64,000 nt of DNA, taken from Eledone cirrhosa. Taxonomy: Eukaryota. The DNA is taken from NCBI GenBank assembly GCA_964016885.1, contig OZ024756.1:6324001-6388000 (forward strand). Reading direction: 5' to 3'. Positions 2,841 to 7,367 of the stretch are shown piece by piece; within the stretch, counting starts at the first letter, position 1, and every line of letters starts with the position of its first letter. The notes under the pieces were generated by a model, which saw only the letters and a program-made list of their open reading frames with translations, searched no databases and was not told the DNA's origin. Position numbers and translations under genes: made by a program.

Positions 2841-3005
2841 GATGAGATTCTACAGGACTAGAACTGTTTCATTCTTTAGAATGATTTCTAAAGAATGAAA
2901 CAGTTCTAGTCCTGTAGAATCTCATCTATATTAAAACTTTTATACTCTGCAATGTATTGAGTACCTTACTTACTGTGGTTACCTCCGATTCAACCCGGAA
3001 TAACG
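2841..3005 (+). mobile_element. Fold-back hairpin element copy 1 (probable truncated PLE pLTR with 5' inversion)
   Basis: Perfect 41-bp inverted repeat 2841-2881/2886-2926 with loop TGAT, then a ~79-bp unique tail ending CCCGGAATAACG; flanked by (TA)n. The right arm holds an HHR 3' half: GAAA-CAG..CTG-TA (2897-2916). Confidence 0.7.
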
Positions 3006-3472
3006 TATATATATATTTATATATATATATATACATATATATATATATATATATATATTATATATATATATATATATACATATATATATATATACATATA
3101 TATACATATATATACATATATATATATATATATATATATACATACATATATATATACGTATATATATATATATATACATATATATATATATATATACATA
3201 TACATACATATATATATGTATATATATATATATATACATATATATATACATATACATATAGATACATATATATATATACATATACATATACATACATATA
3301 TATATATATGTATACATATACATACATATATATATATATATATATATATACATATATATACATATATATATATACATATATATATATACATATATATACA
3401 TATATATATATATATACATATATATACATATATATATATATATATATATACATATATATATATATATATATA

Positions 3473-3664
3473 GATGAGATTCTACAGGACTAGAACTGTT
3501 TCATTCTTTAGAAATCATTCTAAAGAATGAAACAGTTCTAGTCATTCTAAAGAATGAAACAGTTCTAGTCCTGTAGAATCTCATCTATATTAAAACTTTT
3601 ATACTCTGCAATGTATTGAGTACCTTACTTACTGTGGTTACCTCCGATTCAACCCGGAATAACG
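3473..3664 (+). mobile_element. Fold-back hairpin element copy 2 (loop inverted, 27-bp internal duplication)
   Basis: Same arms and tail as copy 1, but the loop is ATCA (3514-3517). Tandem duplication at 3515-3541/3542-3568. Confidence 0.7.
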
Positions 3665-5006
3665 TATATATATATATATATATATATATATATATACACA
3701 TATATATATATATATATATATATATACATATATATACATATATATATATATACATATATATACATATATATATATATATACATATATATACATATATATA
3801 TATATATATATATATATATATTATACATATATATACATATATATATATATACATATATATACATACATATATATATACATATATATATATACATATATAT
3901 ATATACATATATATATATACATATATATATATACATATATATATATACATATATATATATACATATATATACATACATATATATATATACATATATATAC
4001 ATACATATATATACATATATATACATACATATATATATATACATATATATACATACATATATATATATACATATATATACATACATATATATATATACAT
4101 ATATATACATACATATATATATATACATATATATACATACATATATATACATATATATACATACATATATATATATATATATATATACATATATATATAT
4201 ATATATATATATATATATATACATATATATATACATATATATATATATATATATATACATATATATATATATATATATATATATATATATACATATATAT
4301 ATATATATATATATATATATATATATACATATATATATATATATATATACATATATATATATATATATATACATATATATATATATATATACATATATAT
4401 ATATATATATATATATATATACATATATATATATATATATATATATATATATATATATATATATACATATATATATATACATATATATATATATATATAT
4501 ATACATATATATATATAATATATATATACATATATATATATATATATACATATATATACATATACATATATATACATATATATATATATATATATATACA
4601 TATACATATATATACAAATATATATATATATATACATATATATACATATACATATATATACATATATATACATATACATATATATACATATATATACATA
4701 TATATATATATATATATATACATATACATATATATACATATATATATATATATATATATATACATATATATATATATATACATATATATACATATATATA
4801 TATATATATATATACATATATATATATATATACATATATATACATATACATATATATACATATATATACATATACATATATATACATATATATACATATA
4901 TATACATATACATATATATATATATATACATATATATATACATATATATATATATATACATATATACATATATATACATATACATATATATACATATATA
5001 TATATA

Positions 5007-5615
5007 TGGTGGCTGCCAACTCGTTTTCGAGTACGGCCACTACTTTATATCCATGTAGGAGAACCCCTACCGATGCGCTGAACGAGTGTGACTTTTTAGT
5101 CCAGCCAGCGACTTGAAAACTCTGGTACAAACACTACACTTGTGACAATTACTGACACATAGTGCTGGGCCCATGGTACCATGTGACGACAAGTGCAGAG
5201 AGATCTCCAGATATAAAGCAATGCCTGTGCCGTGAAGCTTTTATAGTGAGCAAAGGCACTGCACAAAGCCAGTCCCACTCTCTTAACCAAGATGATATTT
5301 ACCAAAAAGAAGAACAAGTCAACATCATTGGATACCATCAGGGTTGCAGGTGTTATATCAGAGTTTTCCTTCTCCTAGAATTCTGCCTTGACAAAGGCTA
5401 AGGGGTCATCTCTCCCGGTGATTTTGGATGGCCATTGACTCTTAAGAGCTCCTTTGCCCTTTGACAGGTTTTGTTTTAGTCCTGCAGGATGTCCAAAGTC
5501 ACCCTCCTCACCAAGAAACCTTGGTTGGGGTTGCCAGTTTAGTCGCCAACGACCCGACCATGGGACAGGTTGTACTGGGATACATGTTACCAGTAGCACC
5601 AACTGGTGACCTGAC
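5007..5615 (-). mobile_element. ~600-bp non-autonomous, internally deleted RTE-type retroposon, copy 1
   Basis: Near-identical to 34861-35461 and 43530-44121. Has an RTE 5'UTR-like motif TAGGAGAAGGAAAACTCTGA and a C-terminal zinc-finger remnant [17 protein letters not shown]; flanked by (TA)n. Confidence 0.75.
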
Positions 5616-7202
5616 ATATATATACATATATATACATATATATATATATATACATATGTATACATATATATATATATATACATATATATATATACATATA
5701 TATATATATATATATATACATATATATATATATATATATATATATATACATATATATATATATATATATATACATATATATATATATATATATATATATA
5801 TATATATATATATATATATATATATACATATATATATATATATATACATATATATATATATATATATATATACATATATATATATATATATATATATACA
5901 TATATATACATATACATATATATATATATACATATATATACATATATATATGTATATACATATATATACATATACATATATATACATATATATATATATA
6001 TACATATATATACACATACATATATATACATATATATACATATACATATATATATATATATACATATATATATACATATATATATATATACATATATATA
6101 CATATATATATATACATATATATACATATATATATATATATATGTATACATATATATACATATACATATATATACATATATGTATATATATATGTATACA
6201 TATATATACATATATATATATATACATATATATATATATATATGTATACATATATATACATATATATATATATACATATATATATATACATATGTATACA
6301 TATATATATATATATACATATATATATACATATATATACATATATATATACATATACATATATATACATATATATACATATATATATATATATATATATA
6401 CATATATATACATATATATACATATATATATATATATACATATATATACATATATATATATATATATATATATACATATATATACATATATATATATATA
6501 TATATATATATATATATATACATATATATACATATATATATATATATATATATATACATATATATATACATATATATACATACATATATATATATATATA
6601 TACATATATATACATATATATATATATACATATATATACATATATATATATACATATATATACATATATATATATATACATATATATATACATATATATA
6701 CATATATATATATACATATATATACATATATATATATACATATATATACATATATATATATATACATATATATACATATATATATATACATATATATACA
6801 TATATATATATACATATATATACATATATATATGTACATATATATACATATATATATATATACATATATATACATATATATATATACATATATATACATA
6901 TATATACATATATATACATATATATACATATATATATATATATATATATATATATATATATGTATACATATATAAACATATATATATATATACATATATA
7001 TACATACATATATATATACACATATATATACATACATATATATATATATATACATATATATACATATATATATATATACATATATATACATATATATATA
7101 TATATACATATATATATATACATATATATACATATATATATATATACATATATATACATATATATATATATATATACATATATATATATATATATATATA
7201 TA

Positions 7203-7367
7203 GATGAGATTCTACAGGACTAGAACTGTTTCATTCTTTAGAATGATTTCTAAAGAATGAAACAGTTCTAGTCCTGTAGAATCTCATCTATATTAAAACT
7301 TTTATACTCTGCAATGTATTGAGTACCTTACTTACTGTAGTTACCTCCGATTCAACCCGGAATAACG
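7203..7367 (+). mobile_element. Fold-back hairpin element copy 3
   Basis: Same as copy 1 (loop TGAT, 7244-7247) with one substitution in the tail. Confidence 0.7.

What the first reader, a model, noticed from the sequence alone, without database searches (positions are those of the whole stretch)
2841..7367. Perfect hairpin element present as flip and flop loop isomers
Seen: three copies of a 41-bp perfect hairpin plus tail, all in the same orientation. The loop is TGAT in copies 1 and 3 but its exact reverse complement ATCA in copy 2, which also has a 27-bp duplication starting in the loop. Known: flip/flop loops arise from hairpin-transfer replication (parvovirus termini) or from template switching or cruciform resolution at palindromes. 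Inference: either the element passes through a covalently closed hairpin DNA intermediate, or a micro-inversion occurred after local tandem duplication.
Basis: partly seen in the sequence, partly recalled or inferred. Interest (0 to 1): 0.72.

Follow-up and report, generated by a model that had tools for sequence, protein, structure and literature searches.

The report
Two-armed miniature Penelope retrotransposon insertions
These hairpins are tiny truncated insertions of an abundant Penelope-type jumping gene, and their loops point either way about equally often, likely because two DNA copies grow inward from both sides of the cut and are joined where the gene's RNA would begin.

Summary
In detail: three same-orientation hairpin-plus-tail copies, loops TGAT/ATCA/TGAT, with a 27-bp duplication in copy 2. 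They are not a DNA element with hairpin ends. They are ~165-bp stumps of a Penelope-like retrotransposon (RT + GIY-YIG, Hydra-clade motifs; 8,384 exact tail matches): pLTR end plus tail, preceded by an inverted shorter copy. Junctions vary. The TGAT/ATCA class is rare (18 pattern matches) but balanced (7:9 events outside this cluster), and three commoner classes also occur as mirror pairs (16:9, 15:14, 15:14). In 41 of 64 two-armed copies the further arm stops within an 8-nt window about 30 nt below a TATA box. Best reading: two cDNAs, primed on both target strands from two start sites, run off the transcript's 5' end and are joined; loop polarity records which ran further. Copy 2 itself is likely a local duplicate whose loop inverted later, or an assembly error; read data were inconclusive. 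Junction palindromes are in print; I found no paper on mirror balance or run-off. The scan noted the same in other genomes (e1-9549050, e1-8654823).

The parts
2841..2881 (-). Copy 1, short inverted arm (antisense copy of the pLTR, +8 to about +49/53 counted from the C of the hammerhead CTGATGA box = 0)
2882..2885 (+). Copy 1 loop TGAT = pLTR +4..+7, present only on the long arm (long arm reaches further)
   Evidence: alignment to long copies L100/L101
2882..2937 (+). Copy 1, sense pLTR end: 5'-truncated type I hammerhead (stem II, GAAA, stem III, predicted cleavage triplet GTA 2914-2916, 3' strand of stem I) up to the inner element end at +59; first core letters and 5' strand of stem I missing
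2938..3005 (+). Copy 1, one-sided tail (+60..+127); in a long element it runs on into the ORF start
   Evidence: L101
3473..3664 (+). Copy 2, whole element; identical to copy 1 except for loop and duplication
3514..3517 (+). Copy 2 loop ATCA, reverse complement of TGAT
3517..3570 (+). Copy 2, 27-bp tandem duplication (3517-3543, 3544-3570) with 2-nt microhomology to loop letters 3515-3516
7203..7367 (+). Copy 3, loop TGAT 7244-7247; one substitution (7339) against copy 1; same phase break in the 3' TA flank as copy 1 and the upstream copy
1..21051 (.). (TA)n/(TACA) microsatellite array hosting the copies; 200-N gap at 10621-10820

Best explanation
The hairpins are extreme 5'-truncated insertions of a Penelope-like retrotransposon (PLE), likely built from two cDNAs that are primed on the two strands of a cut (TA)n target, would run off the 5' end of the element's RNA, and are likely joined head to head, so that the loop direction would record which cDNA ran further. 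Shown: the sequence is the pLTR end and tail of an RT + GIY-YIG element; the two outer ends fall at preferred places (+59 or about +49..53, and about +127); the inner junction varies but clusters at -9..-2; mirror loops are balanced in four junction classes; either arm can hold sequence the other lacks. Inferred: the cluster marks the transcription start (TATA box 30 nt above -6); both target strands are primed from two internal start sites, as shown in vitro for another PLE; joining is by microhomology or brief snap-back. For TGAT/ATCA, both forms use the same single-base pairing (+3 with +8), made by one cDNA or the other. In this window the four copies likely descend from one TGAT insertion by local duplication, and copy 2's ATCA loop plus duplication likely arose later by template switching in the palindrome, or is an assembly error.
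For: Family: 8,384 exact tail and 10,296 exact core matches. Long copies L100/L101 join this pLTR to an ORF with YRDDG and a C-terminal VY..YIG nuclease; nearest Atlas clusters carry RVT_1 (40-78% of members in three clusters) and GIY-YIG (21-31% in four). L100 has the same architecture at large scale: inverted arm, truncated ORF, pLTR, tail. 95 of 100 tails are followed by a TA run within 20 nt. 64 of 100 tail-selected copies have an adjacent inverted arm; the further end lies at -9..-2 in 41 of 64 and at -13..+8 in 51 of 64; short arm further in 34, long arm in 22, equal in 8 (p=0.14). TATA box in 29 of 29 copies reaching far enough, exactly 30 nt above -6 in 26. Mirror loops: 16:9 of 30 loci (5 unoriented; class total 150), 15:14 of 30 (1 unoriented; 307), 15:14 of 30 (1 unoriented; 493), and 7:9 for TGAT:ATCA. 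In L183, L099 and L133 the short arm reaches -5, -4 and -53 while the long arm starts at +71, +50 and +49, so little or no inverted repeat exists and the short arm cannot be a fold-back copy of the long one. PMC11167929 (parts 1-2 of 4 read): a PLE protein cuts and extends both strands and starts at two internal sites that delimit the tail. Local origin of copy 2: rare class, identity with copy 1 outside the loop, four copies within about 10 kb, large local duplications around them.
Against: The transcription start is only predicted; TATA-like words are common in AT-rich DNA and the 29 copies are one young family, so they are not independent. No extra cap-derived base was seen (G 14, C 2, T 1, A 1 after the antisense end). 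The local cluster shows two loop changes (ATCA, AGAT) against one substitution elsewhere in four copies, so loops may be hypermutable or error-prone after insertion, which could also even out flip and flop. Copy 2 lacks the flank phase break shared by the other three copies. The microhomology count (41 of 64) had no shuffled control and is inflated by the palindrome. Junctions were placed by an automatic aligner, and at least one (L135) was misplaced. Samples are the first matches by position on C1/C2, not random draws, and the class samples overlap the 100-copy sample in a few loci.
Confidence: 0.7

Rival explanations
1. Loops are laid down in one polarity and randomised afterwards by micro-inversion (template switching or cruciform resolution) in the perfect palindromes; the 50:50 ratio says nothing about insertion.
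For: Copy 2 probably arose this way; the upstream copy also has an altered loop. DNA hairpins of about -46 kcal/mol are predicted.
Against: Copies with almost no inverted repeat (L183, L099, L133) still have the short arm reaching further. The duplicated pair L115/L116 kept ATCA in both copies, and window copies 1 and 3 kept TGAT. Near-identical young copies already show both forms.
Confidence: 0.13
2. A single template folds back and self-primes (the antisense self-priming model of PMC3846280), or one cDNA forms a covalently closed hairpin that is opened on either side before integration.
For: PMC3846280 (passages) reads palindromes at PLE inverted junctions as self-priming. Many junctions here are perfect fold-backs with 0-4 nt loops, and some hold templated insertions.
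Against: Fold-back of one strand predicts one polarity and a short arm contained in the long arm; 34 of 64 have the short arm reaching further. It does not explain the preferred outer end of the short arm at +59 (37 of the 85 copies oriented). A brief snap-back by either of two cDNAs is not excluded and is part of the best reading.
Confidence: 0.11
3. A non-autonomous DNA element with hairpin termini replicating by hairpin transfer, like parvovirus flip/flop ends.
For: TGAT and ATCA occur about 50:50 at independent loci.
Against: No fixed hairpin: this loop class has 18 pattern matches against 8,384 tails, and other loops are far commoner (150, 307, 493). The sequence is the pLTR of an RT-encoding element. 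36 of 100 copies have no adjacent inverted arm.
Confidence: 0.02
4. Copy 2's ATCA loop and duplication (and possibly some of the four local copies) are sequencing or assembly errors; this concerns the window only.
For: Perfect palindrome in a 21-kb TA array next to an assembly gap, with several large local duplications; three loop states among four otherwise near-identical copies.
Against: ATCA forms occur at nine other events in ordinary flanks, one (L032) with its own 14-bp duplication; duplications and templated insertions are common at this family's junctions.
Confidence: 0.3

Closest known systems
Endonuclease-positive Penelope-like elements with inverted 5'-truncated pLTR and one-sided tail (Craig et al. 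2021, PMC8557442, passages and section 11; Arkhipova et al. 2013, PMC3846280, passages)
   Same: RT + C-terminal GIY-YIG ORF, pLTR with hammerhead, inverted truncated copy at the 5' end, tail on one side, palindrome at the inverted junction, microsatellite targets, TATA-like motif in the pLTR.
   Different: Here most copies are ~165-200-bp stumps without ORF; the tail is about 68 nt rather than 30-40; junctions cluster at the predicted transcript start and are mirror-balanced, which the passages read do not report. The 2013 paper explains junction palindromes by self-priming on an antisense template.
Hydra clade of C-terminal EN+ PLEs (PMC8557442, section 11)
   Same: DKT, CxCX5C linker, CxxC and CxH around the nuclease E/N, hammerhead, (TA)n insertion.
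   Different: RWR instead of RWK in L101 (RWK in 57 of 120 homologues); long microsatellite-filled 3' region; no tree with reference Hydra sequences was built.
Poseidon element PAc of Anolis (Frangieh et al. 2024, PMC11167929, parts 1-2 of 4)
   Same: Two internal RT start sites delimiting the tail, both target strands cut and extended, predicted dimer: the biochemistry the model needs.
   Different: Different clade; the parts read do not treat inverted junctions or run-off at the transcript start.
LINE-1 twin priming; retroviral strong-stop DNA (both recalled, not from a call)
   Same: Two primers on one target give an inversion joined by microhomology; RT starting near the RNA 5' end runs off as a short cDNA.
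   Different: Here both cDNAs copy the same RNA stretch, so the product is a palindrome, and the outer ends fall at preferred sites.
Parvovirus flip/flop termini (recalled)
   Same: Two reverse-complement loop forms in about equal numbers.
   Different: Fixed terminal sequence and Rep-mediated hairpin transfer there; variable junctions and an RT here.

Membership tests
EN+ Penelope-like element | Single ORF with PLE-type RT and GIY-YIG endonuclease linked to this pLTR | tested here: met
   L100/L101; Atlas clusters with RVT_1 and GIY-YIG; 709 homologues. Pfam alone was weak: GIY-YIG E=0.022, below cut-off. L101's ORF is frameshifted, L100's 5'-truncated; window copies carry no ORF.
EN+ Penelope-like element | pLTR in direct and inverted arrangement, tail on one side | tested here: met
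   64 of 100 with inverted arm
EN+ Penelope-like element | Type I hammerhead motif in the pLTR | tested here: met
   Own descriptor, 253 matches in the fetched loci: GTA triplet 243, 4-bp stem III 230, 3-bp stem II 238, stem I intact in 126 (many others cut by the junction); loop II varies. T-T mismatch closes stem II; MFE fold does not recover the full motif; window copies are truncated.
EN+ Penelope-like element | Ribozyme cleavage, RT and nuclease activity | not testable with these tools
   needs biochemistry
Hydra clade | DKG changed to DKT; CxCX5C linker; CxxC and CxH beside nuclease E/N; (TA)n targets | tested here: met
   motifs in L100/L101; DKT in 91, CxCX5C in 110 of 120 homologues; 95 of 100 TA
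Hydra clade | RWK motif; CCHH motif absent | tested here: inconclusive
   RWR in L101; two cysteines lie between VY and YIG in L100 but with 8 residues between them; CCHH not tested by alignment
Hydra clade | Phylogenetic placement with reference Hydra RTs | not tested
   no reference sequences fetched; supplementary files of PMC8557442 not opened
Hairpin-transfer replicon (parvovirus-like) | Fixed terminal hairpin with two loop isomers | tested here: not met
   many junction classes; this class 0 of 100 sampled copies
Hairpin-transfer replicon (parvovirus-like) | Flip and flop near 50:50 | tested here: met
   7:9 events; not specific to this mechanism
Hairpin-transfer replicon (parvovirus-like) | Rep/HUH or resolvase partner | tested here: not met
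   the linked ORF is RT + GIY-YIG; no genome-wide Rep search was made

The most novel reading that the evidence does not exclude
Most insertions of this Penelope family are double run-off products: a dimeric RT-nuclease primes both strands of a TA target at two internal start sites near the RNA's 5' end, both cDNAs fall off at the transcript start, and they are joined tip to tip. The thousands of mini-hairpins then map the transcription start and both RT start sites, and their mirror-balanced loops are genomic evidence for two-strand priming and against one-strand self-priming as the source of PLE inverted repeats.
Probability: 0.6. Interest if true: 0.6.

Novelty: new member of a known kind. 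Interest (0 to 1): 0.45.

Why it matters
How PLEs form their inverted repeats is described as unresolved (PMC8557442, passages), and the explanation found in print is self-priming on an antisense template (PMC3846280, passages). Loop polarity relative to the tail is a cheap, countable marker that separates one-strand from two-strand models, and the predicted start at -6 can be tested with one 5'-end RNA experiment. The element itself is ordinary, and the locus in this window is a poor example because its ATCA copy is likely secondary.

Tried and rejected
Generic repeat finder: swamped by the TA array. Rfam scan of 2700-28000: 733 matches; the 150 listed were miRNA families below their gathering scores, no hammerhead among them. 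DNA search with the tail alone: no candidates, uninformative. PDB sequence search with the ORF: nothing significant. Sequencing runs: no RNA holder listed, so the transcript start was not tested. Reads: no listed contig piece spans copy 2's loop or duplication junction (tables cut); 31-mers inside a perfect palindrome cannot tell flip from flop; raw reads of another sample (X24) had no depth at 3521-3541; inconclusive. Cap-derived extra base: not seen. Rejected: RT stalling at hammerhead structure as the cause of the cluster, because the stops lie at the far 5' edge of stem I (inference); annealing through stem I explains only a few junctions (L076, L144/L146). Literature: no paper held all of flip, flop, hairpin, retrotransposon, Penelope; searches with strong-stop/run-off/self-priming and twin priming/palindrome/pLTR gave only PMC3846280 as bearing on the junction mechanism; subscription papers are not covered, and no supplements were opened. 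bioRxiv 10.64898/2026.07.22.740005 (part 1 of 5) concerns tandem retrozymes, not inverted stumps. PMC2377424 (passages) reports a TATA-less internal promoter for Drosophila Penelope, so the TATA reading does not carry over from it. PMC13282606 (passages): the words hairpin and palindrome do not occur in its main text. PMC4209133: part 1 of 4 read for the hammerhead layout.

Full report
Observation. The three copies, their loops (TGAT, ATCA, TGAT) and the 27-bp duplication are as described. Arms are 41 bp, or 46 with the adjoining TA letters; copy 2's perfect arm is cut to 26 bp by the duplication. A fourth copy with loop AGAT lies about 2.65 kb upstream of the window. Copies 1, 3 and the upstream one share a phase break 11 nt into the 3' TA flank; copy 2 does not.

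What the element is. A DNA search gave 489 candidates, 40 scored. Exact patterns gave 8,384 tail matches and 10,296 matches to the core beginning CTGATGA, a box that the window copies have partly lost. Long copies show the parent: in L101 the tail runs into an ORF, followed by a microsatellite-filled 3' region and a second pLTR; L100 has an inverted arm joined to a truncated ORF, then pLTR and tail. The ORF has YRDDG and a C-terminal VY..YIG nuclease, 709 homologues and Atlas neighbours carrying RVT_1 and GIY-YIG; Pfam alone was below cut-off. The pLTR holds a type I hammerhead motif. The window copies are therefore pLTR-end-plus-tail stumps preceded by an inverted shorter copy, the arrangement known for PLEs.

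Flip and flop. A 32-place pattern for the 4-nt loop class found 18 matches: 8 TGAT and 10 ATCA relative to the tail (L118 oriented by eye). Removing the 3 window copies, adding two loci found only (C11 TGAT, C5 ATCA) and counting L115/L116 once, because they sit in one inverted duplication, gives 7 TGAT: 9 ATCA events. Three commoner classes have 150, 307 and 493 matches; the first 30 loci of each split 16:9, 15:14 and 15:14, with 5, 1 and 1 unoriented. Mirror loops are a general property of a variable junction, not two isomers of one fixed hairpin.

Where the arms end. Of 100 tail-selected copies, 64 have an adjacent inverted arm (three rows first flagged, L090, L149 and L196, were dropped because the match was not the pLTR end). 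Outer ends are stereotyped: the tail ends in ACGTA or ACTTA context in 93 of 100, and the short arm ends at +59 in 37 and merges with the TA target at about +49..53 in 27 of 85 oriented copies, with 19 other and 2 not tallied. Inner ends cluster: the further arm stops at -9..-2 in 41 of 64. A TATA box lies upstream in 29 of 29 copies that reach far enough, exactly 30 nt above -6 in 26. The short arm reaches further in 34, the long arm in 22, equal in 8 (p=0.14). In L183, L099 and L133 the arms barely overlap or do not overlap, so the short arm was made independently of the long one. Six of the 36 copies without an adjacent inverted arm start at -12..+1.

Mechanism. Shown in vitro for another PLE: both target strands are cut and extended, from two internal start sites that delimit the tail (PMC11167929). 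Inferred here: when RT starts in the first pLTR of the transcript, both cDNAs reach the RNA's 5' end after about 65 and 135 nt, fall off, and are joined by microhomology or a brief snap-back, sometimes with extra templated pieces. The loop is the stretch held by only one cDNA, so its direction records which one ran further. TGAT and ATCA both use the +3/+8 pairing. Long insertions would need RT to start at the downstream pLTR of a read-through RNA. Not shown: the transcript start (no RNA holder listed) and a cap-derived base (not seen).

This locus. Copy 2 is identical to copy 1 outside the loop and duplication, the class is rare, four copies lie within about 10 kb, and the region has several large local duplications and a gap. 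An independent insertion is unlikely. Copy 2 is best read as a local duplicate whose loop was inverted by a template switch that also left the duplication, which begins inside the ATCA loop; an assembly error is not excluded, and the read tools were inconclusive. Two loop changes against one substitution in four copies warn that loops may change after insertion; this is the main weakness of using loop balance as evidence, and it is answered only in part by the non-overlapping copies and by duplicates that kept their loop.

What is known. Inverted pLTRs, tails and junction palindromes are in print; PMC3846280 explains them by self-priming on an antisense template. My searches found no paper on mirror-balanced loops or on run-off at the transcript start; subscription papers and supplements were not covered. 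Earlier notes of this scan reached the same readings in other genomes; I had stated the two-cDNA reading before opening them, and they are not independent support.

Verdict. Real feature; new member of a known kind; interest 0.45, for the testable handle on PLE integration rather than for the locus.

Noticed in passing
G000:C17 about 6321345-6321510 (L111 7345-7510), upstream of the window: Fourth copy of the element with loop AGAT, one letter from TGAT, which lengthens the palindrome by one pair; directly after a LINE 3' end and TA run.
   Followed up: partly
whole genome: The core pattern is strand-skewed (6,426 forward, 3,870 reverse) while the tail is not (4,172 / 4,212); may point to a large tandem array of pLTR cores somewhere.
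   Followed up: no
window 10821-12260, 15610-15913, 24253-25761: Pieces of a second Penelope-like family (RT/GIY-YIG-type ORF fragments on both strands), including a 25-bp-arm hairpin with a 2-nt loop at 15623-15674.
   Followed up: no
window 20374-20575: Hammerhead-like pLTR fragment of a further family (CTGAAGA ... GAAAC), read by eye.
   Followed up: no
window 21054-23499 and two copies within 18 kb upstream: LINE-type RT fragment present three times at about 98.8% identity; with 4.9-kb direct and 7.9-kb inverted duplications, the region is either recently rearranged or misassembled.
   Followed up: partly
L200 2500-8000 (G000:C4:86.27 Mb): A large inverted structure of another Penelope-like family carries a hairpin stump of this family as a passenger in both arms; both kept the ATCA loop.
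   Followed up: partly
L144 and L146; L094 and L143: Pairs of copies with identical junctions; L144/L146 also share flank and are probably a segmental duplicate.
   Followed up: no
window 2946-2964 and equivalents: Small bulged hairpin a few bases past the +59 end, seen in the fold of L101; matches the twin-hairpin start signal of earlier scan notes. The second hairpin past the tail was not tested.
   Followed up: partly
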